A stretch of 64,000 nt of DNA from an uncultured SAR86 cluster bacterium (GTDB lineage: Bacteria > Pseudomonadota > Gammaproteobacteria > Magnimaribacterales > D2472), in contig CACEZB010000001.1 of the NCBI GenBank assembly GCA_902563835.1, positions 42,217 to 106,216 of the forward strand. The letters are read 5' to 3'. Positions 20,911 to 34,910 of this stretch are shown piece by piece (the stretch's first letter is position 1; every line of letters begins with the position of its first letter). The notes beneath the pieces are model-generated. The model searched no databases. It was given only the letters and a program-made list of their open reading frames with translations, and was not told the DNA's origin. The translations under genes and the position numbers were made by a program.

Positions 20911-20991
20911 TAAAAATTTTATATTTTAGAACCTGCATATGTATATTATGTCTATAATTAGCAGTGCGAAGCAAACTTTAAGGGGTTAAAT

Positions 20992-21875: not shown

Positions 21876-21906
21876 AAATTTATTCTACAGTAAACTCATG
21901 ACAATC

Positions 21907-22365: not shown

Positions 22366-22373
22366 TAACAGAG

Positions 22374-22766: not shown

Positions 22767-22781
22767 AGCATCACCCCTTTA

Positions 22782-23693
22782 TTAAAATAAATTAATTAAT
22801 GAATAAGAAAATATTAGAGTAAATGTCCACAAAACAAAAGCTACAGAAAATGTTCTCATATCTATCTGCTTGATTGCCTCTAAACTAATCTGGGCCCCAA
22901 TACAAAAAAGAGCTGCAACTAAAAATATCTGACTTATTGAGTCCAATGCCAATAAAGTTTGCTCTTCAAAATTTAATACTGTTCCTAATACAATTGCTAA
23001 GATAAATATAAAAACGAACATTGGGAATTTCGGTTTTGCGTTCTTTGCATCTTTATAAAAAATACCAAGAATTATTATCAATGGTATTAACCAAATTGTT
23101 CTTCCTAGTTTTAAAGTAGTAGCTGTTTCTAAAGCATCCCCACCGAAAGCCATTGCAGCGCCTACAACTGAACTTGTATCATGAATTGCCATTGCTGCCC
23201 ATGCGCCAAAACTCACATCAGTCATACCTATGCTGTTTCCAATTAATGGGAATAGCGCTATTGCCAAAGCATTAAATGAAAAAATAATAGCCATAGAAAC
23301 TAACAATTCTCTTGGTTTTGCTTTTATTAATGGAGAAATTGCTGCCATTGCTGTCGCGCCACAAATTGCAGTCCCAGACGTTATCAAAAGAGCAAGTCTT
23401 TTATCTGTGTTAAAGATTTTTCCCAATAAGAGTCCTGCTAAAAACACAACAAGTACAAAAATTGTAATGTATGGAAAATATATAGCAGTTATTTTTAAAG
23501 CGCTGGATGCTGATATGGTTAAACCTAAGATAACTACCCCTACTTGAAGAAATTTTGTTCCAATTGATTTGCTAATAAAGTTATCTGGTAATTTGAAAAT
23601 TAATGCAAACGCCATCCCTGTCACTAAAGCCAATAATGGGGATCCTATTAGAATTACTAAAAATGCTAACAGTATTCCTGTGTAAAGCTTCAT
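22782..23693 (-). CDS. YeiH/UPF0324-family (putative sulfate exporter family) membrane protein
   Basis: 303 aa with about 9-10 TM segments and a YeiH-like sequence pattern. Confidence 0.6.
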   Translation of the reverse strand: MKLYTGILLAFLVILIGSPLLALVTGMAFALIFKLPDNFISKSIGTKFLQVGVVILGLTISASSALKITAIYFPYITIFVLVVFLAGLLLGKIFNTDKRLALLITSGTAICGATAMAAISPLIKAKPRELLVSMAIIFSFNALAIALFPLIGNSIGMTDVSFGAWAAMAIHDTSSVVGAAMAFGGDALETATTLKLGRTIWLIPLIIILGIFYKDAKNAKPKFPMFVFIFILAIVLGTVLNFEEQTLLALDSISQIFLVAALFCIGAQISLEAIKQIDMRTFSVAFVLWTFTLIFSYSLINLF

Positions 23694-24532
23694 TTAGTAT
23701 GTTCTATTAACAAAGTTGGAACATTGTGAGTGTGAGATTTTATAGTGGCTACCAAGGTATTTTCTTTTAAGCCATGTTTAATATCAGTTATCTCTACACC
23801 TTCCTTGGTCAGCCTTTCATGAGCTTTTTCAATCGATTCAACCTCCCAGGCCAAACCCCATAAACTATCTAATGAATCCTTGTCATCTTTCTTTTCAACC
23901 ACCTCTATGGTGGTCTTATTTAATCTGAAAAATAGCATCCTGCTATTCCAATGTTCTATCACTTTATCTAGAGCAAGCCTGATATCAAATTCATTTTTAT
24001 AAATATCTATAAACCCATCAGCATCATTTGTATTAATAACTACATGATCTAATTTATTGAAAGCGGTATCTGGATATGATTCTATGGACGGGAGCTGCCC
24101 TTCGGTATGTTCAATAATAAAAGAAAAAAGCCCTCGAGTAAGTTCTGGCGGCAAAAAAAGATTTTTCCATTTCCTTATAGATTGATTATTAGAGTTTGTA
24201 CCTTCACCTAGCGATGGATCATTAACCATGTAGCCTTTATCTTTTAATACTCTAGTAACCTTATCAATATTTTCTGTACCAAAAACTATTCCTGTTAAAC
24301 CCTCGCCTTGTTTCTCTATCGCATCATTAACCAACGCAGCGCCTAATCCCACTCCTTTTGCAGATAAAAGTTCAAAATAAGTATTCTTAAAATTAAATAT
24401 TGAATTAGCAGTGCCTAGTTCTTTATGTTCGCCTTTCCATACTGGGTTAAGACCAAAGACTTTTTGATAATTTTTTTCTGCCTCATCAAGATCCTTAACG
24501 GCTACTATAAGATGGTCTAGTGTATTTATCAT
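23690..24532 (-). CDS. two-domain VOC-family protein
   Basis: 280 aa with two glyoxalase-like modules (LDHLIVAV..., LDHVVINT...). Confidence 0.65.
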   Translation of the reverse strand: MINTLDHLIVAVKDLDEAEKNYQKVFGLNPVWKGEHKELGTANSIFNFKNTYFELLSAKGVGLGAALVNDAIEKQGEGLTGIVFGTENIDKVTRVLKDKGYMVNDPSLGEGTNSNNQSIRKWKNLFLPPELTRGLFSFIIEHTEGQLPSIESYPDTAFNKLDHVVINTNDADGFIDIYKNEFDIRLALDKVIEHWNSRMLFFRLNKTTIEVVEKKDDKDSLDSLWGLAWEVESIEKAHERLTKEGVEITDIKHGLKENTLVATIKSHTHNVPTLLIEHTK

Positions 24533-25023
24533 TCCTTATGCTTATACCATTTTGGTATATCCCTTTTTTTCCAAGTGCAAAAATGGGATTTCTCTCCCAT
24601 ATAAAAATTCTGATAAGCAATTATTGAGTCATCACACTTATATTCATCAGGCATACATTGTGGTGGCTGTTTAAAAGGCATGTCTTTTTGAATATTTTCT
24701 GGTGGCTCTTCTAGAACATCTCTTAATAATAAATCTGTTGAATGTTTTTTTTCATACCGATAGGAGTATTCATCTGATAAAGCTACAAATAAACTGTATA
24801 ACCAATTGTATTGTGCCTCATTCTCTCTTGTCCAAACTGTACTTGGATGGTTTAAATGCGCTCTTTTATACATAGAAAGATTATCCGCTCTTTCATCACC
24901 GTCTCGCTCTCGATGGGCTGTTGATAACATTTGTGCATATTCCAATATCATTTTTACACAGTGCTTATCATTATGCTCAATAGCAGCAATTTTTGGATCT
25001 TTATTTAAATAAAAAATATTCAT
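24529..25023 (-). CDS. conserved hypothetical protein (family with the MNIFYL..DP...A..H.DKH..KMILE.AQ.L N-terminus, also seen in phages and large viruses)
   Basis: 164-aa ORF that overlaps the downstream VOC gene by 4 nt. Function is not established from the sequence. Confidence 0.5.
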   Translation of the reverse strand: MNIFYLNKDPKIAAIEHNDKHCVKMILEYAQMLSTAHRERDGDERADNLSMYKRAHLNHPSTVWTRENEAQYNWLYSLFVALSDEYSYRYEKKHSTDLLLRDVLEEPPENIQKDMPFKQPPQCMPDEYKCDDSIIAYQNFYMGEKSHFCTWKKRDIPKWYKHKE

Positions 25024-25054
25024 TAATTATTTGTTATATATTTTTGGTAAAAAT

Positions 25055-25279
25055 TTACGTGTGAGATTTATGAGTTCTACTTTCAATTTGTTCATTAATA
25101 CTTTTTGCGCAGTCGCTAGCGGCCGTCTCAAACAAGAAAGGGAAAATAGAATGAATAATTGCTGCGATTCCAGAGAATATCATCTTGATTCCATATTTAG
25201 CTGAACACCTTTGGTGTTGAAAATATGTCTCCCCGACTGCCTTTGGATGGCTAGTAAATAATTTAATAATTTTGTTCAA
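25055..25279 (-). CDS. small hypothetical protein
   Basis: 74-aa ORF with one hydrophobic segment. Confidence 0.4.
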   Translation of the reverse strand: MNKIIKLFTSHPKAVGETYFQHQRCSAKYGIKMIFSGIAAIIHSIFPFLFETAASDCAKSINEQIESRTHKSHT

Positions 25280-25311
25280 ACTAAAAATAGTCTACAGGAT
25301 ATTTTTCTTTT

Positions 25312-25590
25312 TTAAAAACCCTTTTCTTCCTTGAGCAATCTTCTTTTAGCCTTTTCACCCCCAGGCCCGCTATACCCACCAATATTTCCATCAGACCTAA
25401 TAGCCCTATGGCAAGGGATCTCAATCGGTCTCGGGTTTTTGCCACAAGCATTTGCAACTGCCCTAGATGAATTAGGGTGTCCAATTGCTATTGCTATTTC
25501 TTTATATGATTTGGTGTGTCCTCTTGGAATCTTTTTAAGTTGCGCCCAAACCTTTTTTTGAAAGATTGTTCCAGATATTCTTTTATTCAA
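25312..25590 (-). CDS. stand-alone methylated-DNA-protein-cysteine methyltransferase (MGMT/Ogt) C-terminal domain protein
   Basis: 92 aa with the active-site motif IPCHRAI and a helix-turn-helix region (SYKEIAIAIGHP). Confidence 0.75.
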   Translation of the reverse strand: MNKRISGTIFQKKVWAQLKKIPRGHTKSYKEIAIAIGHPNSSRAVANACGKNPRPIEIPCHRAIRSDGNIGGYSGPGGEKAKRRLLKEEKGF

Positions 25591-25596
25591 TTTAAT

Positions 25597-25917
25597 TTAC
25601 GATTTATATAAATTCACAATCGTAGTGCCTATTACAATTAAAAATAATCCTGCAACCGTTTGCCAATTTAAAGTTTGTTTGTAAAAAATATAGCTCAAAA
25701 TAGCTATAGAAAATATTCCTATTCCAGACCACGAGGCATAAACAATTGAGAGAGGAAGTTTTTGAGAAACGATTGCTAGAAAATAGAAAGACATTCCATA
25801 TGAAGTTAGCAATACTACTGTTGGGGTTATCTTTGTAAAGTTTTGTGATGCTGGTAATAGCATGGTGCCAACAACCTCTAATGCAATTGCTATAAAAAGC
25901 AATGCATAGACATTCAT
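25597..25917 (-). CDS. SMR-family small multidrug/quaternary-cation efflux protein
   Basis: About 106 aa from the ATG at 25917, with 4 TM segments. The conserved membrane Glu sits in TM1 (AIALEVVGT). ATGA overlap with the upstream GFA gene. Confidence 0.75.
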   Translation of the reverse strand: MNVYALLFIAIALEVVGTMLLPASQNFTKITPTVVLLTSYGMSFYFLAIVSQKLPLSIVYASWSGIGIFSIAILSYIFYKQTLNWQTVAGLFLIVIGTTIVNLYKS

Positions 25918-26282
25918 TTTTCTACCCAAGGAAGTTTATCTTCAATATAAATATCTGTCTTTGGCTCAAAGTCTTGAGGCTTATCTAAGCTACCAATAGT
26001 TATATAAATATAATCTGGGTATTCTTTAAGCATACAAACTAAAGGTGTCCCACATTCCTGACAAAAATATCGCGTCCCTTCAGAGGAGGAAATTAATTTT
26101 TTTGGTTCCCCTTCAATATATGTAAATCGTTCTAGTGGTATAGCCATCCAAGAAACATATGCGGCCCCAGAAATACGTCTGCACATAGAACAATGACAAT
26201 TTGAAGTATAGTAATTATCTGGTCCAAAACCGTAACGAATTGAGCCGCAAAAACACCCGCCTTGTATCACTTTTCCTACCAT
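25914..26282 (-). CDS. GFA-family zinc protein (second paralogue)
   Basis: Cys motifs CFCG...CHCSMCRR...CQECG. Confidence 0.7.
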   Translation of the reverse strand: MVGKVIQGGCFCGSIRYGFGPDNYYTSNCHCSMCRRISGAAYVSWMAIPLERFTYIEGEPKKLISSSEGTRYFCQECGTPLVCMLKEYPDYIYITIGSLDKPQDFEPKTDIYIEDKLPWVEK

Positions 26283-26310
26283 GATTGAATATCCATAACC
26301 AGATTAATTC

Positions 26311-26391
26311 TCATCGATTAAGAAACCACCAATACATAACCATCATAAAGATGATGACAAACCATAACATAAAGTTGCTATTCTTTTTCAT
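26311..26391 (-). CDS. possible 26-aa hydrophobic peptide (MKKNSNFMLWFVIIFMMVMYWWFLNR)
   Basis: Hand translation; below the ORF-track size cutoff. Overlaps the end of the preceding small ORF by 14 nt. Confidence 0.25.
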   Translation of the reverse strand: MKKNSNFMLWFVIIFMMVMYWWFLNR

Positions 26392-26527
26392 TTCTTAAAA
26401 ACATTAATGAAGCTGTTGCTAGTATAACAAGCATCAAAATAGTAAATTGTTTTTCTTCAACTATTGCAACAACAAGAATTGCCGCTGCCCACATAATTGA
26501 TTGAAAGATCTTTTGTTTTTTATTCAT
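26378..26527 (-). CDS. possible 49-aa two-TM peptide (MNKKQKIFQSIMWAAAILVVAIVEEKQFTILMLVILATASLMFLRNEKE)
   Basis: Hand translation. The ATG lies 5 nt after the stop of the 135-aa gene. A decayed copy of its first codons follows the paralogous 117-aa gene. Confidence 0.3.
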   Translation of the reverse strand: MNKKQKIFQSIMWAAAILVVAIVEEKQFTILMLVILATASLMFLRNEKE

Positions 26528-26532
26528 GACTT

Positions 26533-26940
26533 TCATTTACCCAGACCAGGAGATCCACCCTGAAAAATCTTTACTTTGTCTATTACTTTTCCGGACCTAT
26601 CGAAAGTCTTACCCTTTTTATTTTTGTTAAGAGTTTTTATTCGATTTATTTGATCTTTGGTAAAACCTCTCCTTCCTCTTGATTCAAATTTTTTTATGTC
26701 TGATTCTTTCTTTAAAACACTCATATAATCACAATAATGTCGTATTTCTTTTAATTTCCAACCTTTGGGTTGAAGAATTTTTTTAATGTCCTCATAAAAA
26801 ATAAAAGGGAATATTATTTTTTTAAATTCTTGAAACTTTTTAATTGAAATTATTCTTTCTAAATTTTGTTTTTTTTCTTCTAATTTTCTTTTTACTTCTT
26901 TTTTTTGAATCGGGGAAAGGTTTTTATATTTTTTCTTCAT
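26533..26940 (-). CDS. basic hypothetical protein, paralogue A, with C-terminal QGGSPGLGK motif
   Basis: 135 aa, Lys/Arg-rich. Homologous along its length to the 27006-27359 ORF (..ERIISIK../..ESIISTK.., DIKKIL..GW..EI). Confidence 0.55.
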   Translation of the reverse strand: MKKKYKNLSPIQKKEVKRKLEEKKQNLERIISIKKFQEFKKIIFPFIFYEDIKKILQPKGWKLKEIRHYCDYMSVLKKESDIKKFESRGRRGFTKDQINRIKTLNKNKKGKTFDRSGKVIDKVKIFQGGSPGLGK

Positions 26941-26952
26941 TGATTAACTATT

Positions 26953-26994
26953 ATAACCAAATCTACTCCACCGTAGTGGAGTTGAATTGGTTGT
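26953..26994 (-). repeat. J1 intercistronic element: imperfect 42-bp palindrome with a 7-bp stem and UACG-loop hairpin core
   Basis: ATAACCAA-atct-ACTCCAC-cgta-GTGGAGT-tgaa-TTGGTTGT. Positions 26955-26975 are identical to 27390-27410. Positions 26963-26980 read STTVE* on the minus strand. Confidence 0.7.
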
Positions 26995-27005
26995 ACCTGT
27001 TTTCT

Positions 27006-27359
27006 TCATGACTTTCCTTTACCCAAACCTGGTGATCCACCTTGATACGGTTTTGTATAAGTTTTTGGTTGTCCGGTCTTGTTTTTGGAATATTTAAATG
27101 AAGGGGATACCCTTCGAGTATCCTGTCCCTTTCCTATACTTTTTGGTTTAGATAATTTCGATATTTGTTCCCTCGACCAACCCAACTCCATTAGTGAATC
27201 ATGAAGTATTTTTTTTATATTATCTCGACGATTGATTTTCTTATCCTGTAATTTAGTTGAAATTATTGATTCCAACTGAGTTATTAACTCCTCTAAATTC
27301 TTATTTTTGATATGACCATCTTTATTAAGATAATCTTTAAGATAACCCTTGATATCCAT
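27006..27359 (-). CDS. basic hypothetical protein, paralogue B, with C-terminal QGGSPGLGK(GKS) motif
   Basis: 117 aa. The C-terminal motif codons differ from paralogue A only at synonymous sites. Confidence 0.55.
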   Translation of the reverse strand: MDIKGYLKDYLNKDGHIKNKNLEELITQLESIISTKLQDKKINRRDNIKKILHDSLMELGWSREQISKLSKPKSIGKGQDTRRVSPSFKYSKNKTGQPKTYTKPYQGGSPGLGKGKS

Positions 27360-27387
27360 ACTTATTTTTTACACCTAAATAACTGGT

Positions 27388-27432
27388 ACAACCAAATCTA
27401 CTCCACCGTAACGGAGTGTCCATAACCAAATT
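27388..27432 (-). repeat. J2 intercistronic element: hairpin copy plus flanking AACCAAAT direct repeats
   Basis: The 21-bp stretch aaccaaatctactccaccgta is shared with J1. Hairpin at 27400-27417. Positions 27398-27415 read SVTVE* on the minus strand. Positions 27419-27432 repeat 26292-26305 (13/14). Confidence 0.7.
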
Positions 27433-27446
27433 GTCAACTTTCCCCA

Positions 27447-28304
27447 TTATTTCTTAATTTGTTTATTTACTAGTTTTATTTTGTCTACATTTAGACCCTT
27501 AACATTTACTAAATTACTAAAGATGCTAGCAAAAAGTCTAATCGAGTAGTTTTCAATCTCATCTAAGAGGAAACTATACTCCGGATGAAGTTCAAAGAAC
27601 AAAAAACTATCAAACTCTTCCATTGCGACTCTTGAAGAGTTTTCTTTTACCCTGTCTCCAAATTTATTTGCTTTTCCAATATAGAGTTGGTTTTCTTTCT
27701 TGTTATTTAAGATGTAAACCACATTTGTTCTCGATGAATACTTTTTTAGTTCAGATTTTTTTAACCATCTGTCTGAATAGGAAATAAAAATTTTATCTTT
27801 TTGTTTTTTCTTTTTACTGTCTTCCCAAAAAGCAAATAAATTTTTATCCTCAAGAAAATAAAACATCTCATCAAAGTCAGTCTCTTGCTTAGAAAGTACT
27901 TTTACTCTAAAAATATTTTCTTTTAAGTGAACAAATTCGAGAAGTTCTTTTATTTTTGGTTGTGCTTTATTTCTTGTGGAGGCATAACTGTAGATCATTA
28001 ATTTTCTTAATGCCTTTAAGGTATCGAGTTCGTTTTTCCAATATATTTGGAGCACATCCCTAACAGGGTATTTAACATTAGATCTTTTTTTTGATTTGCT
28101 TGAATTATCAATACTGACTAATCGTATTTTTGCATCAAAGGTTTTGTTTTTAATTTTTAGTTTTATCGATTTTATTCTTTCTTTTTTTGTGAGTTTAAAG
28201 TGCTTTATATACTCTGGATAAACTGCTTTTTGAAGAGTAAACCCGTAATAAAAAAATGTATATCTAGGTATTACATAACTGGAACTTAAAGCAGGTTTGA
28301 CCAT
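27447..28304 (-). CDS. GIY-YIG-domain nuclease with unassigned Lys-rich N-terminal region of about 190 aa
   Basis: The C-terminal segment VVYILNNKKENQLYIGKANKFGDRV...LLDEIENYSIRLF matches the GIY-x(9-11)-YIG-x(7)-R...E..N layout (compare UvrC GVY..LYVGKAKNLRKRV). This is about nt 27519-27725. Confidence 0.6.
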   Translation of the reverse strand: MVKPALSSSYVIPRYTFFYYGFTLQKAVYPEYIKHFKLTKKERIKSIKLKIKNKTFDAKIRLVSIDNSSKSKKRSNVKYPVRDVLQIYWKNELDTLKALRKLMIYSYASTRNKAQPKIKELLEFVHLKENIFRVKVLSKQETDFDEMFYFLEDKNLFAFWEDSKKKKQKDKIFISYSDRWLKKSELKKYSSRTNVVYILNNKKENQLYIGKANKFGDRVKENSSRVAMEEFDSFLFFELHPEYSFLLDEIENYSIRLFASIFSNLVNVKGLNVDKIKLVNKQIKK

Positions 28305-28323
28305 TTTTTATTCGACGGTTGCA

Positions 28324-28347
28324 GAATAAGTGCGAGTAGTGATTTCG
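28324..28347. repeat. left copy of a perfect 24-bp inverted repeat
   Basis: gaataagtgcgagtagtgatttcg is the exact reverse complement of 28941-28964. Imperfect extension to 28314 (acggt...). Confidence 0.9.
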
Positions 28348-28367
28348 TTTATCGTGTTCATTTCCAT

Positions 28368-28796
28368 TTAAAATTTGTTTCCTTTGATTGTTTCTTTTAT
28401 TAGATTCTGGGTTATGTTTATCCACTCCACTTCTTTAATTAGTTTACATTTACCTTTTAAAGATCCGTTCCCCAATCGTTCAAGATAAAGCGTCTCTCTG
28501 TTTAATGAATAATAAGAGTCATATAACTTATCTATGTGCTTTAGATGTATACCGCCTTCGCCTACAACCTTATATACTTTGCCTGAAATTTTATGAAACT
28601 TATATACGCCCACTTCAAAGGTATTGTTTTTTATTGGTTTTGTATTTACTACAAAATATTCTTGATAATCTGCTTCTAACTTATTTTCATTGCCTTCCTT
28701 TCTCCATTCATCATCTATGTCACATTCAATCCAAGTCGTTTCACCATGAGCATGGAAATTGATTATAAAAATTAAGCAAATTAAAAATTTTTTCAT
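28368..28796 (-). CDS. small secreted hypothetical protein
   Basis: 142 aa with an N-terminal signal peptide (MKKFLICLIFIINFHA). The whole gene lies between the 24-bp inverted repeats. Confidence 0.55.
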   Translation of the reverse strand: MKKFLICLIFIINFHAHGETTWIECDIDDEWRKEGNENKLEADYQEYFVVNTKPIKNNTFEVGVYKFHKISGKVYKVVGEGGIHLKHIDKLYDSYYSLNRETLYLERLGNGSLKGKCKLIKEVEWINITQNLIKETIKGNKF

Positions 28797-28940
28797 ATCT
28801 TATTCTTACATACTAATAAGTTAGTTTCATCCTTGAGATTTTTGTCTTGTAAGTTTTCTGTTCTTTTTGAGGATAAGCAACTAAATAATCACTTCTGCAA
28901 TTAAGAATAAAAGTTAAATATGTATCGTTGATGCGTGATG

Positions 28941-28964
28941 CGAAATCACTACTCGCACTTATTC
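28941..28964. repeat. right copy of a perfect 24-bp inverted repeat
   Basis: cgaaatcactactcgcacttattc. Overlaps the J3 remnant. Confidence 0.9.
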
Positions 28965-28978
28965 CACCGTAGCAGAGT
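28959..28978 (-). repeat. J3 element: third UACG-loop hairpin / GlmS-end-like remnant
   Basis: The minus strand reads tct gct acg gtg gaa taa (SATVE*). The hairpin is ACUCUGC-UACG-GUGGAAU with 6 of 7 pairs (2 wobble). Confidence 0.55.
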
Positions 28979-29098
28979 GTTCTTACCCCACCCATAATTC
29001 TTCACTATTTCTGCGGTATTTAAAAAGGTTAATGATTGGTTGCTTAAATTACTCATAATTATAGTGCTGTATATCCAAATTATGATATTGATTTAAAA

Positions 29099-29464
29099 TC
29101 AAGATAGTAACCAAAACGCCAAAAGACTAATATAGAAAATCTGTATTATCACAAGAAGACTGTCAATAAGACTATCAATCGAACCTGTAAATTTATTATT
29201 TATGCCAACAAGGTCTAAAACTTCTTGAAGCAATCTAAGAAAAAATAAAAAAAACAATGGTATTACTAATCCATTTGGTCCCGCATACGTAATAGTGTTG
29301 TATAGCAAAGGGGTATTATTTATCAGATCAGAGGATACTAGCGAGACATAAATCCAAGGGGCAGAAAACATGGCAAATAAAAGAATAAACCCGTAAGTAA
29401 TAATCGCACCTATGGCACTGGTAAGAAATCTAGAAAGAAATTTTCTAATCTGCTTAATATCCAT
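29099..29464 (-). CDS. hypothetical membrane protein
   Basis: 121 aa with about 3 TM segments. Confidence 0.5.
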   Translation of the reverse strand: MDIKQIRKFLSRFLTSAIGAIITYGFILLFAMFSAPWIYVSLVSSDLINNTPLLYNTITYAGPNGLVIPLFFLFFLRLLQEVLDLVGINNKFTGSIDSLIDSLLVIIQIFYISLLAFWLLS

Positions 29465-29544
29465 TTCTTAATAAGAGGTTCACGATTTTAGTTTGATTGT
29501 GTTATTGGTTAAGTAAAAAAGTAATTTGGTTTTGATATAAACCA

Positions 29545-30000
29545 TCAATAAATTAAAACACAATAATTTAACTCTGTTTCCGCTTCATCGTATTGTTCTT
29601 TGGTTATAGGCAACAAATTTTCAAAAGGAATTGGGTGTGGTTTTATTCTGGGTGGGTCTTGATAGTTTAATATTGCGTATTTTCCTGTGAATTGTATTCC
29701 GTTTTTTGTTTCAGCAATAAATTCTAGAGTTGGTGCAACACCAGGACCTTGTGCTTCCCATGGCAAACAATACTCATCTTCTCCTATCATTCGACAATAC
29801 AATGGCGGCATAACATCAACATCAACATGGTTATTTAAAAAGGTCATGCTAATCGCTGGTTGTATTGTCATCATGTAGTAAGTACGATTCATCTCAGCAA
29901 TCGAATAAGTTACAGAACATCTAATATCTTTTTCTCCTCCATCTTCGTGAGCAAATAGATTAATAGATAAGAGCAATGTAAATAGAACAACGTTTTTCAT
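29545..30000 (-). CDS. small secreted hypothetical protein
   Basis: 151 aa. The signal peptide ends ...NLFA and is followed by HEDGGEKD. Contains 4 Cys. Confidence 0.55.
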   Translation of the reverse strand: MKNVVLFTLLLSINLFAHEDGGEKDIRCSVTYSIAEMNRTYYMMTIQPAISMTFLNNHVDVDVMPPLYCRMIGEDEYCLPWEAQGPGVAPTLEFIAETKNGIQFTGKYAILNYQDPPRIKPHPIPFENLLPITKEQYDEAETELNYCVLIY

Positions 30001-30150
30001 AAAAATATTTTGCCATAACTCTTTATAAATGTCCTATAAGTACACATAAAGGTCCGCAACAAGTCTCAACATCCCCTTGTGACTTCCTCTAACACGAAAA
30101 AATAGGTGAAATTTTTAGGGTAGTTTTTACCAGGGTTAAATTTTAGTGGT

Positions 30151-30176
30151 TTTTAAAACCCCCGCAGAATGCGAGG
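30151..30176 (-). terminator. candidate rho-independent terminator, probably the displaced ancestral glmS terminator
   Basis: Minus-sense CCUCGCA-UUC-UGCGGGG (7 pairs, one G.U that pairs only in this sense), then GUUUUAAAA. It starts 23 nt after the stop codon of the glmS-end remnant. Confidence 0.5.
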
Positions 30177-30199
30177 TTAAAACTAATTGTTGTTTAAAT

Positions 30200-30221
30200 T
30201 TACTCCACTGTGACTGACTTG
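30200..30221 (-). repeat. displaced copy of the glmS 3' end (last 6 codons plus stop), acting as an att-like direct repeat
   Basis: ttactccactgtgactgacttg versus 31726-31747 ctactccacagtgactgacttg is 20/22 identical. Both differences are silent (Thr third position; TAA versus TAG). Confidence 0.85.
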
Positions 30222-30225
30222 AATG

Positions 30226-30240
30226 AAACAGAGAATTAGA
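30226..30240. repeat. inner inverted repeat, left copy (AAACAGAGAATTAGA)
   Basis: 14/15 match to the reverse complement of 31707-31721. Both copies sit exactly 4 nt inside the 22-bp direct repeats. Confidence 0.75.
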
Positions 30241-30280
30241 TTTATCCCTTATGTCTACTGACTTCTTCATTGCTTTTTTT

Positions 30281-30386
30281 TTGACCAAACCCTACCTGCT
30301 TTTGCAGTAACCTCGTTGACCAAACCGGTTTTATAGATATTTCTTCCATTTTATACATTATAACCGTTGTTATTGTTTGACCAATC
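30281..30386 (+). repeat. three direct copies of TTGACCAA(A/T)C (30281, 30316, 30377)
   Basis: ttgaccaaacc occurs twice and ttgaccaatc once, in the non-coding arm next to the left att-like repeat. These are candidate arm-type or regulator binding sites. Confidence 0.45.
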
Positions 30387-30414
30387 GTCCTATATAAGTT
30401 TGTTATAATTTTTA

Positions 30415-31656
30415 ATGGTTATGAAAAAAATAATAGTTCTCAATATTCTTGTCCTTCTTGCTGGTTGTGGTCCATCGCAGGAAGAGAGGGTGAATATTGC
30501 TCTAAATGCTTGCGCCGTTATGGGTGAATCGAAACAATCAGATTCATTGTTTCGCATGCAAACCATGGTTGATGCGCGAGAAAAGTTAGGTGGTGAAGGG
30601 TTTTCGGGAGGGGATGACGCAATCTTAGAGGCATTTGAATTTGGAATTTGTTCAGAGTTAGTATTGAACGAATCCTATGATGAACTTCTTCTATCTTTAA
30701 AAGATGCTAAGCGCGAAAGAGAGAGAATAGCGGCAGAGAAATTGGCAGAAGAAAAGAGAATAGAGGCAGAAAAACTGGCAGAAGAAAAGAGAATAGAGGC
30801 AGAAAAACTGGCAGAAGAGAAGAGAATAGAGGCAGAGAGGCAAAGAATTGCCGATAGTAAACCTACAGTAAAAGAAGAGTTCTATGGCAACGGTAGATTA
30901 AAAAGCAGGACAAATTACCAACCCGTACTGAATGGAGGAAAAAAACATGGTCTTTTTGAGTTGTTCTACAAGAGCGGTCAATTACAGTTAAAGCAAAACT
31001 ACAGAGACGGAAAAGAAGACGGTGTTTATGAGGAGTACTACGAAAATGGTCGAGTAAGTGTACGGACTGTTTTTAAGAATGGAAAACGTGAAGGTCCTTA
31101 TGAGGAGTATCATGAAAATACTCAATTGTGGGTACAAACTGTTTTTAAGAATGGGAAAATTGAAGGTGATTATTTTCAATACGACAAGTACGGTATTGTA
31201 AAAGCACAGATTAGTTTTAAGAACGGAAAACGTGATGGTCCTTATATAGGTTACTGGGATAAAGGGGGGGTAAGAGAAATGGGTAATTACAAGGAAGGAA
31301 AACGTGATGGTCATTTTTGGTTTTATGGAGCAAAAGGCACTCGTTCATCTATGGTAGATTGGGAAGAAGATACTTTCTATAAGATTAACATTGAAGAAAA
31401 ACTAAAAGGTTATTTTAAAAACGGTTTCTTCTATCCATTAGAAAAAGAAGGTATTTACAAGAATGGATTGCGTCATGGTATTCATAAAACCTATGCGGAT
31501 TACTACACGGAGGGTGAAACTCTGTTGACTTGGAAAGGAGAATACAAAAACGGAAAGTTAGATGGTCTAACTTTTGGTTATGACGGCAAAAGAGAATATG
31601 TAAAGAATTGTTACAAAAACGGTGATGAAATAATTATGTCCTACTGCAAAAAGTAA
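30415..31656 (+). CDS. lipoprotein with MORN-variant (YwqK-like) repeats and a coiled-coil linker
   Basis: Lipobox LLAGC. More than 8 repeats of the Y.NGk..G....Y type. AEKLAEEKRIE occurs 3 times. The start may instead be the ATG at 30421. Confidence 0.7.
   Translation: MVMKKIIVLNILVLLAGCGPSQEERVNIALNACAVMGESKQSDSLFRMQTMVDAREKLGGEGFSGGDDAILEAFEFGICSELVLNESYDELLLSLKDAKRERERIAAEKLAEEKRIEAEKLAEEKRIEAEKLAEEKRIEAERQRIADSKPTVKEEFYGNGRLKSRTNYQPVLNGGKKHGLFELFYKSGQLQLKQNYRDGKEDGVYEEYYENGRVSVRTVFKNGKREGPYEEYHENTQLWVQTVFKNGKIEGDYFQYDKYGIVKAQISFKNGKRDGPYIGYWDKGGVREMGNYKEGKRDGHFWFYGAKGTRSSMVDWEEDTFYKINIEEKLKGYFKNGFFYPLEKEGIYKNGLRHGIHKTYADYYTEGETLLTWKGEYKNGKLDGLTFGYDGKREYVKNCYKNGDEIIMSYCKK
30733..30831 (+). 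repeat. 33-bp x 3 in-frame tandem repeat encoding AEKLAEEKRIE
   Basis: gcagaRaaaYtggcagaagaRaagagaatagag is repeated head to tail, with partial copies on both sides. Confidence 0.9.
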
Positions 31657-31683
31657 TCAATTGCTTTTTTGTAAAAAAGGGAG

Positions 31684-31725
31684 AAAAAAATGACAGAATC
31701 GTGATTTCTTATTCTCTGTTTTGTT
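31684..31725. terminator. candidate bidirectional terminator between the convergent MORN gene and glmS
   Basis: ACAGAAT...ATTCTCTGT stem (7 pairs plus a 2-nt bulge). It is flanked by A7 on one side and TTTGTT on the other, so there is a U-tract in both senses. Confidence 0.45.
31707..31721. repeat. inner inverted repeat, right copy (TCTTATTCTCTGTTT)
   Basis: Reverse complement AAACAGAGAATAAGA. Partner of 30226-30240. Confidence 0.75.
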
Positions 31726-33552
31726 CTACTCCACAGTGACTGACTTGGCAAGATTTCTTGGTTGATCAATATCGGTGCCCCTTAAAAGGGCAACCTCATA
31801 AGAAAGAATTTGAAGTGGAATGGTGTAAATAATTGGAGTTAAAAGAAAATCACATTTAGGCATATTAATAACCTGTCCTGATTTTAAATCCATTGTGATA
31901 GAAGGATCAGCAAAAACATACAGGGTGCCGCCCCTAGCCTTAACTTCTTCGAGGTTTGAAACAAGCTTTTCAGCTATTTCGCTCTCTGGAGCTAATGCAA
32001 TAACTGGCATTTCTTCATCAATTAATGCCAAAGGTCCATGTTTTAACTCGCCGGCCGGATAAGCCTCAGCATGAATATAAGAGATTTCTTTAAGCTTAAG
32101 AGCGCCTTCTTTTGCAATGGGATAGAAGATACCTCTTCCTAAAAATAAAGCATTATCTTTGCTTGCTATTGCAGGCGCTATCTCAAGAATTTTATCTTTT
32201 AATTTTAAGGTCTCATTTACAGTATCAGATAACGATCTCATTGCTGTAATAACACGAGTCCTTAATTTAGGGTTTTTACCCCTACTCTTTGCGAGCGCAA
32301 GAGAAAGCAGCATTAATGCAGCTAGTTGAGTGGTAAATGCTTTGGTTGAAGCAACGCCTATCTCAGGGCCGGCATTAGTAAAAATAGAATAATCAGATTC
32401 TCTTGCTAAAGAGCTAGTCGGCACATTGCAAATTGTTAGCGTTGATAAATAATCTTTTTCTTTTGCATATCTTAATGCAGCAAGTGTGTCTGCTGTTTCT
32501 CCTGACTGAGATATTGTTACCAATAGAGAATCTTCGTCAACATGTGGATTTCTATATCTATATTCTGAAGCATAATCAATCTGGGTTGGCAGCTCTGCGA
32601 TAGCAGAAAACCAGTTTGCAGCAACCCTTCCTGCATGCAAGCTCGTGCCGCAAGCAACAATTTGGATTCTTTTTACTTTTTCAAATATTTCAGATGACCC
32701 TATACCAAAGATATTATCTAATACATCATCGCCACCAACTCTGCCATCGATTGTATTTAGAATTGCATCAGGCTGTTCATATATTTCTTTTTCCATGAAA
32801 TGTTTATATTCGCCTTTAGAGGTTGCCTGATTAGAAATGTCAATTTGAGAAATCTCTCTTTCGACTTTATTTTTTGACTGATCATAGATTGTAAATTCTT
32901 CAGATGAGAGCTCAGCCACATCTCCATCTTCTAAAAAAATAAATTCATTTGTTAGCTGAGCTATAGCAAGAGGATCTGATGCAGCTAAAAACTCATCTGT
33001 TCCTATTCCAATTAGTAGTGGCGATTTGTTCCTAGCAATAATTATATTTTTGTCATCTTCTTTATCTATTGCTGCAATTGCATAAGCGCCATCAAGTTTT
33101 TCTTTAGTTAAATACATCGAGTCCAGCATTGAATTGCCCTTGGCTAAAAAATACTCAAGCATATGGGCTATTAATTCTGAGTCTGTTTGAGAAGAAAAGC
33201 TATAGCCCTCCTTTTTTAAAAATTCTTTTAAATCAAGATAGTTTTCAATAATTCCATTGTGAACAATGTAGACTCTTTCATTTGACTTATGAGGATGAGC
33301 GTTTTCCTCTGATGGTTCTCCATGAGTTGCCCATCTAGTATGAGCAATCCCCAGCTTACTTTTTGGCTTTTCGGAGATCATCTTTTCTTCTAGTAATTTA
33401 ACTTTTCCCAAAGTTCTTAAATGAGCTATTTGATTATTCTGATGTAGCGCGATCCCGGCAGAGTCATAACCTCGATACTCCATTTTATGAAGCCCTTGAA
33501 CAAGAAGCTTTCCTACATTTCTGTTAGAAGCAGCAGCTATGATTCCACACAT
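31726..33552 (-). CDS. glmS: glutamine--fructose-6-phosphate aminotransferase
   Basis: 608 aa. N-terminal MCGI (Cys2 nucleophile), two SIS domains, C-terminal ...LAKSVTVE. Confidence 0.97.
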   Translation of the reverse strand: MCGIIAAASNRNVGKLLVQGLHKMEYRGYDSAGIALHQNNQIAHLRTLGKVKLLEEKMISEKPKSKLGIAHTRWATHGEPSEENAHPHKSNERVYIVHNGIIENYLDLKEFLKKEGYSFSSQTDSELIAHMLEYFLAKGNSMLDSMYLTKEKLDGAYAIAAIDKEDDKNIIIARNKSPLLIGIGTDEFLAASDPLAIAQLTNEFIFLEDGDVAELSSEEFTIYDQSKNKVEREISQIDISNQATSKGEYKHFMEKEIYEQPDAILNTIDGRVGGDDVLDNIFGIGSSEIFEKVKRIQIVACGTSLHAGRVAANWFSAIAELPTQIDYASEYRYRNPHVDEDSLLVTISQSGETADTLAALRYAKEKDYLSTLTICNVPTSSLARESDYSIFTNAGPEIGVASTKAFTTQLAALMLLSLALAKSRGKNPKLRTRVITAMRSLSDTVNETLKLKDKILEIAPAIASKDNALFLGRGIFYPIAKEGALKLKEISYIHAEAYPAGELKHGPLALIDEEMPVIALAPESEIAEKLVSNLEEVKARGGTLYVFADPSITMDLKSGQVINMPKCDFLLTPIIYTIPLQILSYEVALLRGTDIDQPRNLAKSVTVE

Positions 33553-33554
33553 CT

Positions 33555-34910
33555 TTAGTCCTTCTTTTTAGACCAGTTTTCTTTATTGTCTTGTTTGGCT
33601 CTGCCAACACCCAGAGCATCGTCAGGTACATCTTTTGTAATAACTGATCCTGCTGCAACATATGCATTCGATCCAATTGTAACTGGTGCCACTAACGAAG
33701 AATTGGTTCCAATGAAGCTTTTATCACCTATCTTAGTTGCATGCTTGTCCTTACCATCATAATTGCACGTAATTGTACCTGCTCCAATATTTGAGTCTTC
33801 ACCAATCTCAGAGTCCCCCAAATATGCTAAGTGGTTTGCCTTTGAGTGCTTGCCTACTGTTGTCTTTTTAGTTTCAACAAAATTGCCTATTCTTGCTCCA
33901 TCATCAATATAACTTCCCTCTCTAAGACGAGCATATGGACCAATTGAGCAATCTTTCCCTACTTTAGATGAAACTAGATGAGAAAATGCCTCAACAGATG
34001 AACCATCTCCAATCTCTACATCTTTAAGAATAGTATTTGGTCCAATAACAACATTATCACCAAGCGTTATTTTTCCATCTAAAATTACATTTACATCTAT
34101 AACACAATCTTTTCCAACAGATATTTCTCCCCTGACATCAACCCTAGATGGATCTGATAAGGTTATACCCATTTTTAATAAATCTTCTGCCTTCATTTTT
34201 CTATATATTTGCTCTAATTCTGCTAACTCTGTTTTAGTATTTGCGCCTTGAACTTCATCGTTTGGCACAACACATGTTTTAATTTTAAACCCTTTTGTAT
34301 TAATTATAGAAACTATATCAGTTAAATAGTATTCTTCAGCTGCATTATTATTTTTCACTTCATTTATTGCTTCCTCTAAGAGCCTTTTATTGCAGCATAA
34401 AATCCCAGTAAAGATTTCATTAATTAGCTTGTCTTCATTAGAAGCATCTTTTTCTTCAACTATTTCTTCTGTTAGGCCGTCTGAATTCTTTTTTACTCTT
34501 CCGTACCCAGTTGGGTTGTCCATGAGGGTTGTTAAAATTGTTAGGCTGTCTGTAGTTGAGGTAATTAAATTTTCTAAAGTATTTTTTTTAATTAGTGGGA
34601 CGTCTCCGTATAAAACAAGAACTTTGGATTCAGCTGATATTGTGTCTAATGAAGATTTGACTGCATCAGCAGTCCCAATTGCTTCTTTTTGTTCGCTGAT
34701 ATTAATTTTGCCATTAAAGGAATTGGCTTCTTTTATTATCGACTCTTTTTCATAACCAACCACGAACGTCGCCTCATCTGTTATGTCTTGAACAGTTTCA
34801 TAAATTCTCTTAAGCATAGAGTGTCCGCCAACTGGCTGGAGAGATTTTGCTTTAGATGAAAGCATTCTTGAGCCCTCGCCCGCAGCTAATATTACAGTAT
34901 GAATTTTCAC
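33555..34910 (-). CDS. glmU: bifunctional UDP-N-acetylglucosamine pyrophosphorylase / glucosamine-1-phosphate N-acetyltransferase
   Basis: 451 aa with N-terminal LAAGEGSRM and C-terminal hexapeptide repeats. Synteny atpC-glmU-glmS. Confidence 0.95.
   Translation of the reverse strand: MKIHTVILAAGEGSRMLSSKAKSLQPVGGHSMLKRIYETVQDITDEATFVVGYEKESIIKEANSFNGKINISEQKEAIGTADAVKSSLDTISAESKVLVLYGDVPLIKKNTLENLITSTTDSLTILTTLMDNPTGYGRVKKNSDGLTEEIVEEKDASNEDKLINEIFTGILCCNKRLLEEAINEVKNNNAAEEYYLTDIVSIINTKGFKIKTCVVPNDEVQGANTKTELAELEQIYRKMKAEDLLKMGITLSDPSRVDVRGEISVGKDCVIDVNVILDGKITLGDNVVIGPNTILKDVEIGDGSSVEAFSHLVSSKVGKDCSIGPYARLREGSYIDDGARIGNFVETKKTTVGKHSKANHLAYLGDSEIGEDSNIGAGTITCNYDGKDKHATKIGDKSFIGTNSSLVAPVTIGSNAYVAAGSVITKDVPDDALGVGRAKQDNKENWSKKKD

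What the first reader, a model, noticed from the sequence alone, without database searches (positions are those of the whole stretch)
26292..31747. 5.4-kb integrase-less accretion island at the glmS 3' end (attTn7-equivalent locus), punctuated by GlmS-C-terminus-like remnants
Core synteny (atpIBEFHAGDC-glmU-glmS) stops at the glmS stop codon (31726) and core-like genes resume at 26282. The interval contains only small ORFs with no housekeeping assignment. Read on the glmS-sense (minus) strand, four extra short segments translate to the near-invariant GlmS C-terminus followed by a stop. These are KSVTVE* at 30200-30220 (20/22 nt identical to the real end, both differences silent), SATVE* at 28959-28976, SVTVE* at 27398-27415 and STTVE* at 26963-26980. 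For SVTVE*, all three nucleotide differences from the real gene end fall at codon third positions. A ladder of displaced gene ends is what serial site-specific integration into the 3' end of glmS would leave. Each incoming element would supply a replacement end and push older ones outward. No integrase, transposase or tnsABCD gene is present, so the modules appear to be non-autonomous cargo mobilised in trans, or stranded.
Basis: partly seen in the sequence, partly recalled or inferred. Interest (0 to 1): 0.8.

Follow-up and report, generated by a model that had tools for sequence, protein, structure and literature searches.

The report
Serine-recombinase gene-cassette array behind glmS
The stretch behind glmS in this SAR86 marine bacterium is a stack of small mobile gene cassettes. 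Each was spliced into the last codons of glmS by a large serine recombinase encoded elsewhere. The result looks like an integron but appears to use a different enzyme, and I found no published description of it.

Summary
The window (a SAR86 genome) holds five intact glmS-end copies in the island, not four, plus a decayed one at the GFA start codon.

In 76 SAR86 glmS loci the motif ACNGTNGAR-stop occurs 195 times on the glmS-sense strand downstream of glmS. It occurs 2 times antisense and 1+1 times in 850 kb upstream.

The copies delimit cassettes (median 675 nt; 84% co-oriented with glmS). Cassette ends are inverted repeats about a dyad axis on the A|C bond of the Thr606 codon. Comparing the same cassette in different contexts maps the exchange point to that AC.

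The enzyme is a large serine recombinase. Four complete 6-9 kb elements carry it as their last gene and sit directly against glmS. In 18 of 18 contigs the mimic lies 13-73 nt after the recombinase gene. Homologs at 35-37% identity, one in Pseudidiomarina, show the same layout.

Cassettes 97-100% identical occur in genomes whose glmS is only 64-79% identical.

The window has no recombinase, so its six cassettes are non-autonomous or stranded. The closest known analogue is SCCmec at rlmH. I rate it a new variant of a known kind.

The parts
31726..33552 (-). glmS (608 aa). Its last 20 nt (31726-31745, AGTCAGTCACTGTGGAGTAG) form junction J0, and the exchange dinucleotide AC is at 31737-31736.
   Evidence: ORF and translation. 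It is 93-99% identical to SAR86 GlmS. Motif scan.
30210..31735 (-). Cassette 1 (1526 nt). It carries an antisense 413-aa MORN_2 lipoprotein gene (30415-31656, + strand). Its ends are inverted repeats AACAAAACAGAGAAT / ATTCTCTGTTTCATT.
   Evidence: Pfam MORN_2 at 1.2e-9. The same cassette is 94% identical in L045, where it is third in the array with two other cassettes between it and glmS.
30200..30219 (-). Junction J1: AGTCAGTCACAGTGGAGTAA (KSVTVE*).
28969..30209 (-). Cassette 2 (1241 nt). It starts with a ~200-nt conserved leader module (about 30000-30199). It encodes a 151-aa ORF with a hydrophobic, signal-peptide-like N-terminus (29545-30000) and a 121-aa hydrophobic ORF (29099-29464).
   Evidence: ORFs. 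The left arm ATTTAAACAACAATTA matches the arm of the L085-type recombinase element (ATTTAAACGACAATTA) at 15 of 16 positions. The leader is aligned across 21 cassettes.
28959..28978 (-). Junction J2: ACTCTGCTACGGTGGAATAA (SATVE*).
28318..28968 (-). Cassette 3 (651 nt) with a 142-aa ORF (28368-28796). It is bounded by a perfect 24-nt inverted repeat (28324-28347 / 28941-28964).
   Evidence: Inverted repeat I5. ORF.
28308..28327 (-). Junction J3: ATTCTGCAACCGTCGAATAA (SATVE*).
27408..28317 (-). Cassette 4 (910 nt) with a 285-aa protein carrying a weak GIY-YIG nuclease domain (27447-28304).
   Evidence: Pfam GIY-YIG at 3.3e-4, just below the curated cut-off. The right arm CAATTTGGTTATGG resembles the right end of the L098-type recombinase element.
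27398..27417 (-). Junction J4: ACTCCGTTACGGTGGAGTAG (SVTVE*).
   Evidence: It also scores as a short hairpin.
26973..27407 (-). Cassette 5 (435 nt) with a 117-aa ORF (27006-27359). Its ends form a 26-nt inverted repeat that is 88% complementary (26976-27001 / 27381-27406).
   Evidence: Inverted repeat I6. ORF.
26963..26982 (-). Junction J5: ACTCCACTACGGTGGAGTAG (STTVE*).
26281..26972 (-). Cassette 6 (692 nt) with a 135-aa ORF (26533-26940) and a 52-aa membrane ORF (26378-26536). The 135-aa ORF is a paralog of the 117-aa ORF in cassette 5.
   Evidence: Direct repeats D7, D8 and D10. Relatives of the 52-aa ORF occur in the arrays of 11 other loci.
26271..26290 (-). Decayed junction J6: ATTCAATCATGGTAGGAAAA, preceded by the GGTTATGG arm. 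The GFA start codon sits on the former AC position.
   Evidence: Direct repeat D6. Sequence.
25914..26282 (-). GFA-family gene (122 aa). It lies inside the strain-variable zone and is probably an old, fixed cassette.
   Evidence: Pfam GFA at 2.2e-27. It is absent at this position in L015, where synteny resumes at the SMR start, window 25929. In L071 a 67%-identical GFA gene directly follows an intact mimic.

Best explanation
The interval is this genome's copy of a cassette array found in many SAR86 lineages. The array is most likely built by a family of large serine recombinases (LSRs) whose chromosomal target is the last codons of glmS.

How I think it works:
- A circular unit carries an attP-like site. 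This site has two inverted arms of roughly 22-27 bp around the core A-N-TC-N-GT-N-AC-N-GT-N-GA-R-TA-R.
- The recombinase exchanges strands at the central AC dinucleotide, which is the first two bases of the Thr606 codon.
- The incoming unit therefore donates a new N-GTN-GAR-stop. GlmS keeps its essential ...TVE end.
- The previous end, with everything behind it, moves one place outward.
- Repetition gives a ladder of glmS-end mimics separating one-gene cassettes. Most cassettes are co-oriented with glmS and have a start codon about 30 nt after the mimic.

Autonomous units are 6-9 kb. They carry the LSR as their last gene, a rolling-circle-type Rep-like gene, and often a restriction-modification system.

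The six cassettes in the window carry no recombinase. They are non-autonomous units moved in trans by such an LSR, or are now stranded.

Shown: the repeat ladder, cassette boundaries, exchange point, dyad axis, linkage of the LSR to the same ends, and horizontal spread of cassettes.
Inferred: catalysis by the LSR, mobilisation of the small cassettes in trans, and expression by read-through from glmS.
For: 1. Ladder. The TVE-stop motif occurs 195 times on the sense strand downstream of glmS in 76 SAR86 loci. It occurs 2 times antisense and 1+1 times in 850 kb upstream. The full 14-position core has 126 perfect matches on the sense strand and 1 on the antisense strand.
2. Exchange point. For 30-31 pairs of the same cassette in different contexts, wobble positions -19, -16 and -13 travel with the left cassette (77-87% against 23-27%). 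Positions -10, -7, -4 and -1 travel with the right cassette. The exchange therefore lies within N|AC|N.
3. Dyad axis. Joined cassette ends are complementary only about the A|C bond: 13.4 of 26 positions on average, 18.2 in the best half, against 6-8 at every other axis. Own-end pairing of at least 13/16 occurs in 46% of intervals, against 6% of random pairings and 5% of junction pairings. When left unconstrained, the central dinucleotide is AC in 155 of 163 sites.
4. Enzyme. L018:16176-17831 is a 551-aa LSR, with Pfam Resolvase 6e-24, Recombinase 1e-11 and Zn_ribbon_recom 3e-4. Its best NCBIfam match is CcrB.
5. Enzyme-site linkage. Four complete elements (L018, L085, L091, L094) lie directly between the glmS AC and a mimic, with the LSR as the last gene. 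Their arms are 18-24/29 complementary.
6. All 18 contigs with sequence after the LSR gene have the mimic 13-73 nt downstream.
7. One identical LSR protein (P0039) abuts four different downstream cassettes.
8. L089 shows an element-end to element-start junction.
9. Homologs at 35-44% identity (L098, L099, L100) keep the layout.
10. Mobility. Cassettes are 97-100% identical between genomes whose glmS is 64-79% identical, and they sit at different array positions.
11. The window against L045 and L015 shows breakpoints at the mimics.
Against: - No LSR is present in the window or in 76 of the 77 SAR86 arrays within 10 kb of glmS. Action in trans is therefore not demonstrated.
- From my own knowledge of these enzymes, canonical LSRs recombine only attP with attB. 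Building an array needs insertion into a hybrid site (the glmS half plus a cassette half). That requires relaxed site selectivity, which I did not show.
- About half of the intervals lack clear end complementarity, and several arm classes occur only as left ends or only as right ends.
- Arm sequences are very diverse, so many cassettes have no identified cognate recombinase.
- The exchange point is resolved only to 2-4 nt by comparative data.
Confidence: 0.8

Rival explanations
1. Graveyard model. The same LSR system operates, but each cassette is the eroded stump of a full-size element that arrived with its own recombinase. Internal deletions then left one-gene remnants. Nothing is mobilised in trans.
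For: The LSR elements share arm classes with recombinase-less units, for example GTTTAGTCGGTCTTTC in L018 and in L045 cassette 2. There is a weak trend towards more decayed half-cores away from glmS: 0.29 mismatches at the first junction against 0.47-0.82 later, though 0.31 at the fifth. The window's distal junction is decayed.
Against: Very small cassettes (200-700 nt) with both ends intact recur at 97-100% identity in distantly related genomes, with different neighbours on both sides. This is hard to obtain by independent deletions. Only 1 of 77 arrays holds an LSR.
Confidence: 0.13
2. A single-strand hairpin mechanism. The array would be integron-like (a tyrosine IntI acting on a folded attC) or driven by an HUH/Y1 enzyme. 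The joined cassette ends would fold into a stem whose loop presents the glmS mimic for cleavage.
For: Arms vary between cassettes yet stay complementary, even within the commonest class (2.9 against 5.2 mismatches of 18). This is the pattern expected from selection for structure. The array is compact and co-oriented like an integron.
Against: Neither a tyrosine recombinase nor a resolvase was detected among 1444 ORFs, using one memory-recalled reference sequence for each. That screen also missed the L018 LSR, so it is weak. Pfam on selected array ORFs found no HUH transposase. The exchange is at the centre of the palindrome, not at its edge. No GTTRRRY / RYYYAAC boxes are seen. An LSR is physically linked to the same ends in 18 of 18 contigs.
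Confidence: 0.04
3. Tn7-like, TnsD-directed transposition into attTn7, leaving cargo behind.
For: The same gene end is used. In Pseudidiomarina (L099) a Tn7-like end with tnsA and tnsB sits 25 nt after a displaced glmS end.
Against: No tns genes were found among the array ORFs I scanned. The units join inside the glmS coding end rather than about 25 bp downstream. No 5-bp target duplication and no TnsB-site ends are seen at the junctions.
Confidence: 0.01
4. A REP-like or terminator repeat family unrelated to glmS, so that the SxTVE* reading is coincidental.
For: Two junctions (J4, J5) score as short hairpins in a terminator scan.
Against: The motif is confined to the sense strand downstream of glmS, with 195 hits against 1-2 elsewhere. 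In the 64-kb window it occurs only there. Its conserved and variable positions follow the glmS codon phase, including in positions the search left unconstrained.
Confidence: 0.02

Closest known systems
SCCmec / SCC composite islands, and the Enterococcus cassette chromosome, at rlmH (CcrAB/CcrC large serine recombinases)
   Same: A large serine recombinase targets the 3' end of a conserved housekeeping gene, and the gene end is regenerated on insertion. The att sites have dyad symmetry. Multiple att copies occur, and recombinase-less units accumulate in tandem (PMC6222049). The SAR86 recombinase's best curated-family match is CcrB, though far below the cut-off.
   Different: The target gene is glmS, not rlmH, and the host is a streamlined marine gammaproteobacterium. 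The units are mostly single-gene cassettes with a median of 675 nt, against 21-78 kb for ECC. There is one recombinase gene rather than a ccrAB pair. The recombinase is only remotely related. Arrays are dense (up to 9 mimics in 10 kb) and turn over between near-identical strains.
Integrons and CALINs (IntI tyrosine recombinase, attI/attC)
   Same: The array consists of compact, mostly co-oriented, mostly one-gene cassettes separated by imperfect palindromic sites. New cassettes apparently enter at the proximal end. Many arrays lack a recombinase, as CALINs do. The cargo is enriched in restriction-modification systems and nucleases.
   Different: There is no IntI. The sites have no R/L boxes. 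The exchange is at the centre of the palindrome rather than its edge. The anchor is a housekeeping gene's coding end rather than attI. The linked enzyme is a serine recombinase.
Tycheposons of Prochlorococcus (from my own knowledge: Hackl et al., Cell 2023)
   Same: An abundant, streamlined marine bacterium builds flexible islands through site-specific insertion into the 3' end of a conserved gene. This leaves ladders of partial target copies, with recombinase-less satellites.
   Different: Tycheposons use tyrosine recombinases and tRNA/tmRNA targets, and they are multi-kilobase elements. I did not test this comparison here.
Tn7 at attTn7 (TnsD recognition of the glmS end)
   Same: Both exploit the invariant glmS C-terminal coding sequence as a safe, universal landing mark. 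Recognition appears to tolerate wobble positions.
   Different: Tn7 uses transposition rather than recombination. Its insertion point is about 25 bp downstream of glmS, against 10 nt inside the gene end here. None of the Tn7 genes or ends are present.

Membership tests
Large-serine-recombinase integrative elements (SCC-like) | Encodes a large serine recombinase (Resolvase, Recombinase and zinc-ribbon domains) | tested here: not met
   No such gene is in the window (Pfam; tblastn). It is met in related elements L018, L085, L091 and L094. The window's units are therefore at best non-autonomous members.
Large-serine-recombinase integrative elements (SCC-like) | att sites are imperfect inverted repeats around a non-palindromic central dinucleotide | tested here: met
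   The dyad axis falls uniquely on the A|C bond. AC occupies 155 of 163 unconstrained sites. In the window, cassettes 1, 3 and 5 have complementary ends.
Large-serine-recombinase integrative elements (SCC-like) | Strand exchange occurs at the central dinucleotide | tested here: inconclusive
   Comparative mapping places the exchange between wobble positions -13 and -10, that is at N|AC|N. This is consistent, but the 2-nt staggered cut itself cannot be seen in sequence.
Large-serine-recombinase integrative elements (SCC-like) | The recombinase gene is physically linked to the element end that carries the att half-site | tested here: met
   The mimic lies 13-73 nt after the recombinase stop codon in 18 of 18 contigs.
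Large-serine-recombinase integrative elements (SCC-like) | The recombinase catalyses integration and excision at these sites | not testable with these tools
   This needs a recombination assay.
Integron / CALIN | intI tyrosine recombinase with adjacent attI and Pc | tested here: not met
   glmS-glmU-atp lies upstream. The XerD query found no tyrosine recombinase among 1444 array ORFs. That screen used a memory-recalled reference and, with its resolvase query, missed the L018 LSR, so it is weak.
Integron / CALIN | attC sites with R''/L''-L'/R' boxes (RYYYAAC...GTTRRRY) and exchange at the G|TT of R' | tested here: not met
   The core is A-TC-GT-AC-GT-GA-TA and the exchange is at the centre of the palindrome.
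Integron / CALIN | Array of compact, co-oriented cassettes | tested here: met
   The median cassette is 675 nt, 84% are co-oriented with glmS, and the ORF starts a median of 31 nt after the site. This is a resemblance in function only.
Tn7-like transposon at attTn7 | tnsABC plus tnsD, TnsB-site ends, 5-bp duplication, insertion about 25 bp downstream of glmS | tested here: not met
   No tns genes were found among the array ORFs scanned. The junctions lie inside the last four glmS codons. A true Tn7-like end in L099 provides the contrast.
REP/BIME-type dispersed repeats | Many copies dispersed around the genome in intergenic regions, on both strands | tested here: not met
   Hits number 195 on the downstream sense strand, against 2 antisense and 2 in 1.7 Mb of upstream sequence counting both strands. 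In the window they occur only in this locus. Whole genomes were not available.

The most novel reading that the evidence does not exclude
SAR86, one of the most abundant bacterial groups in the surface ocean, runs a true integron analogue driven by a large serine recombinase. Under this reading, single-gene cassettes with their own palindromic sites are excised and inserted individually in trans. They enter at the glmS codons, are expressed from glmS read-through or from a portable leader module, and are exchanged across family-level lineages. This would be a second, independently evolved gene-capture platform. It would also be a main route of flexible-gene flow in a streamlined genome that otherwise lacks mobile elements.
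Probability: 0.45. Interest if true: 0.88.

Novelty: new variant of a known kind. Interest (0 to 1): 0.78.

Why it matters
- Mechanism for SAR86 flexible genes. How streamlined, recombinase-poor marine bacteria such as SAR86 acquire flexible genes is poorly understood. This locus offers a concrete, testable mechanism for one of their hypervariable islands. The site, exchange point and candidate enzyme are all defined.
- Convergent design. It shows a serine recombinase producing an integron-like architecture. If trans-mobilisation is confirmed, the 'cassette array' design has evolved convergently.
- Possible tool. The recombinase clade recognises a near-universal bacterial sequence, the glmS end. 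It could therefore become a broad-host integration tool comparable to Tn7.
- Cargo. The cassettes carry restriction-modification systems, nucleases and many small secreted or membrane proteins. The array may therefore act as a defence and surface-variation store in SAR86.

Tried and rejected
- Exact-protein look-up of the window's GlmS found nothing on record.
- Rfam found nothing at E<=1 on window 20000-34000, or at gathering score on seven related loci. The repeats and the leader module are therefore not a described RNA family.
- Two pattern scans of viral contigs for the junction found nothing. I have no evidence that the sites sit on catalogued phages.
- phmmer of 1444 array ORFs against gamma-delta resolvase and XerD sequences written from memory found nothing. 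It even missed the true LSR, so I treat that screen as weak. The LSR surfaced only when I listed the long ORFs and ran Pfam.
- PADLOC and NCBIfam gave no function for the window's cassette proteins.
- RNAalifold on the 200-nt leader module gave no convincing structure: -8.5 kcal/mol and almost no covariation. I read the module as a DNA-level expression or insulation unit, not as an RNA gene.
- A GC-rich recurrent cassette that looked non-coding is two sulfotransferase-like genes of foreign base composition.
- Eight literature searches found no description of this system. I also searched inside two SAR86 papers. The library lacks most subscription journals.
- The age gradient along arrays is weak, and I do not rely on it.

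Full report
**Observation**

glmS lies on the minus strand (31726-33552) and ends ...AAG TCA GTC ACT GTG GAG TAG. The KSVTVE* copy at 30200-30220 differs from the real end at two silent positions, and no such match occurs in shuffled sequence.

A regular-expression scan of the whole window for ACN-GTN-GAR-stop gives seven hits. All are on the minus strand and none on the plus strand.
- The real end.
- The four reported copies.
- A fifth copy at 28308-28325 (SATVE*).
- An isolated copy at 21880-21891.

A further decayed copy overlaps the start codon of the GFA-family gene at 26271-26290.

**Organism and comparative frame**

A scan of one genome per species returned 78 SAR86 loci with glmS and 10 kb on each side. 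The DNA downstream of glmS is hypervariable. The distance to the next shared genes (SMR, a glyoxalase-like gene) ranges from 3.3 kb to more than 10 kb, and gene content differs.

In 76 of these loci the TVE-stop motif occurs 195 times on the glmS-sense strand downstream of glmS. It occurs twice on the antisense strand and once on each strand in 850 kb upstream. The ladder is therefore common across SAR86 and specific to this locus, not a dispersed repeat. Fifteen of the 59 loci with the full 10 kb downstream, mostly from lineages whose GlmS is about 74% identical to the window's, show no downstream copy.

Positions that the search left free also follow the glmS codon phase (A-N-TC-N-GT-N upstream of the AC). 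The 14-position core has 126 perfect sense-strand matches against one antisense match.

**Anatomy of a unit**

The mimics divide the region into intervals with a median length of 675 nt. In 84% of them the longest ORF is co-oriented with glmS, and it starts a median of 31 nt after the mimic's stop codon.

The roughly 16 nt after a mimic are the reverse complement of the roughly 16 nt before the next mimic. At least 13/16 positions match in 46% of intervals, against 6% for random pairings and 5% for the two arms that meet at one junction. The arms belong to the cassette, not to the junction.

Within the commonest arm class, a cassette's own ends are still closer to each other than to other members of the class (2.9 against 5.2 mismatches of 18). 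When the two ends of each interval are joined, the complementarity has a single sharp axis on the bond between the A and the C of the Thr606 codon (13.4 of 26 against 6-8 elsewhere). When left unconstrained, that dinucleotide is AC in 155 of 163 sites.

**Exchange point**

Thirty-six pairs of full-length homologous cassettes occur in different loci. About 30 of them have unrelated left neighbours, and about 31 have unrelated right neighbours.

In these pairs, wobble positions -19, -16 and -13 (counted from the first base after the stop) travel with the cassette on the left. Positions -10, -7, -4 and -1 travel with the cassette on the right. The exchange therefore lies within N|AC|N.

An incoming unit donates the last 10 nt of glmS (N-GTN-GAR-stop) plus its left arm. 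It ends with its right arm plus A-N-TC-N-GT-N-AC. This is the 'replacement end, older ends pushed outward' model.

**The enzyme**

None of the window's island ORFs matches a recombinase family. tblastn with the recombinase found later detects nothing in the 64 kb.

Listing the long ORFs inside the arrays of all loci exposed one 551-aa protein in L018. It has Resolvase, Recombinase and zinc-ribbon domains, so it is a large serine recombinase. It is the last gene of a 6,047-nt element that starts right after the glmS AC and ends at a mimic 32 nt after the recombinase stop. The element's arms are 22/29 complementary.

A metagenome scan, a homolog search and context look-ups added 17 more contigs.
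- In all 18 contigs with sequence beyond the recombinase gene, the mimic follows within 13-73 nt.
- Four elements are complete (L018, L085, L091, L094; 6.0-9.1 kb). All four are the glmS-proximal unit.
- Recombinase lineages that are 50-70% identical have different arm sequences.
- One identical recombinase protein abuts four different downstream cassettes.
- One contig (L089) carries an element-end to element-start junction, as expected for a circle or a tandem pair.
- The elements also carry a Rep-like gene (REP_ORF2-G2P) and restriction-modification genes.

More distant homologs keep the layout. At 44% identity, L098 has a mimic 41 nt after the recombinase gene, followed by further cassettes. 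At 35-37% identity, L100 and L099 do the same. In L099, from Pseudidiomarina taiwanensis, the displaced glmS end is followed 25 nt later by a Tn7-like end with tnsA and tnsB. The whole recombinase clade therefore appears specialised on the glmS end.

**Mobility**

Many cassettes are 97-100% identical between genomes whose glmS genes are only 64-79% identical, and they sit at different ordinal positions. This argues for recent horizontal movement of individual cassettes.

For the window itself, two comparisons matter.
- L045 (GlmS 99% identical) has the MORN cassette in third place, behind a restriction-modification cassette and an HNH cassette. The homology ends at the mimics.
- L015 (also 99%) shares nothing between the glmS AC and the SMR start except a fragment of the 52-aa ORF.

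**The window's array**

The six units are as follows.
1. 30210-31735: MORN_2 lipoprotein, antisense to glmS.
2. 28969-30209: a conserved leader, then two small ORFs, one with a signal-peptide-like start and one hydrophobic.
3. 28318-28968: a 142-aa ORF between perfect 24-nt inverted repeats.
4. 27408-28317: a weak GIY-YIG protein.
5. 26973-27407: a 117-aa ORF.
6. 26281-26972: a 135-aa paralog of the 117-aa ORF, plus a 52-aa ORF.

The array ends at a decayed junction on the GFA start codon. Two arms resemble those of identified recombinase lineages. The left arm of unit 2 matches the L085 type at 15 of 16 positions. The right arm of unit 4 and the decayed J6 arm resemble the L098 type.

**Interpretation and limits**

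The best-supported reading is serial, recombinase-mediated, site-specific insertion at the AC of the glmS Thr606 codon. The window's cassettes are non-autonomous or stranded.

Three properties are typical of serine recombinases rather than tyrosine recombinases, according to what is established about those families.
- The dyad-symmetric site.
- The non-palindromic central dinucleotide.
- The sharp exchange point, despite differing wobble bases on either side.

The following remain undemonstrated.
- Catalysis by the recombinase.
- Action in trans on small cassettes.
- The relaxed site choice needed to insert into a hybrid site made of the glmS half and a cassette half. As far as I know, canonical large serine recombinases pair only attP with attB.

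About half the intervals lack clear end complementarity, and some arm classes are seen at only one end. Hybrids, decay and missed degenerate sites are probably common.

**Comparison with known systems**

The closest described system is the SCCmec/ECC family at the 3' end of rlmH. It also has a large serine recombinase, regeneration of the gene end, dyad-symmetric att sites, multiple att copies and recombinase-less units in tandem (PMC6222049). The SAR86 enzyme's best curated match is CcrB, far below the family cut-off.

The architecture of small, co-oriented, single-gene cassettes resembles an integron. Every defining integron feature that could be tested is nevertheless absent. Tn7 shares only the landmark gene.

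Literature searches found no description of a glmS-targeting serine recombinase or of SAR86 cassette arrays. The library lacks most subscription journals. I rate the finding a new variant of a known kind, with high interest.

Noticed in passing
window 30000-30199 (minus strand); also L016, L019, L022, L025, L026, L028, L030, L031, L032, L041, L045, L053, L054, L073, L076: About 200 nt of sequence-conserved leader opens at least 21 different cassettes. It consists of a GC hairpin (CCYCGCATTCTGCGGGG) followed by a T-run, then a conserved AT-rich stretch ending in AAGGAG...ATG. Unrelated cargo ORFs follow it. It has no Rfam match and no convincing consensus RNA fold. It looks like a portable terminator-promoter-RBS unit.
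   Followed up: partly
window 21880-21891 (minus strand); L015 ~19223; L011 ~19434: An isolated TVE-stop motif (ACTGTAGAATAA) lies about 30 nt upstream of a second GFA-family paralog, roughly 4.4 kb beyond the array. It is conserved at the same place in two relatives. It may be a fossil junction, which would mean the 'core' genes distal to the array were once cassettes.
   Followed up: no
window 26271-26300 and 25914-26282: The GFA gene's ATG sits exactly on the former AC of a decayed junction. Its first codons (MVGKV) appear to be read from the remains of the mimic. The gene is absent at this position in the near-identical strain L015.
   Followed up: partly
L099 11641-12200 (Pseudidiomarina taiwanensis PIQG01000004.1): A 37%-identical recombinase is followed by a displaced glmS end. 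Twenty-five nt later comes a Tn7-like end with repeated AGGAATAAAGT motifs and tnsA/tnsB. Two unrelated systems thus use the same gene end at different offsets in one genome. The recombinase element there carries a type I restriction-modification system.
   Followed up: partly
L010 13656-15228; L028 17223-18784; L069 12888-14437; L040, L046, L074: A cassette of about 1.55 kb has visibly higher G+C than the rest of these loci. It encodes two sulfotransferase-like proteins. It is 98% identical between genomes whose glmS is only 64% identical.
   Followed up: partly
L045 11828-15305; L071 4274-8351; L085 2657-4250; L056, L007, L008, L094: Array cargo is rich in restriction-modification systems: MvaI/BcnI with an N4/N6 methylase, type III res+mod, and Bsp6I with a C5 methylase. 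It is also rich in stand-alone nucleases (HNH, GIY-YIG with NUMOD3, T5orf172). The array may serve as a defence store.
   Followed up: partly
L098 1197-3087: One recombinase element carries a protein-primed family-B DNA polymerase fragment (PF03175) instead of the Rep-like gene. Different small replicons may therefore share the same integration module.
   Followed up: no
window 26533-26940 and 27006-27359: Two neighbouring cassettes encode paralogous lysine-rich proteins that both end in QGGSPGLGK. Their flanks are also duplicated (repeats D7, D8, D10). This suggests cassette duplication inside the array.
   Followed up: no
window 25800-31900: Sigma-70-like promoter matches are fewer than in shuffled sequence (8 against 26 +/- 4.6). 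This is compatible with read-through expression, but the scan is crude.
   Followed up: no
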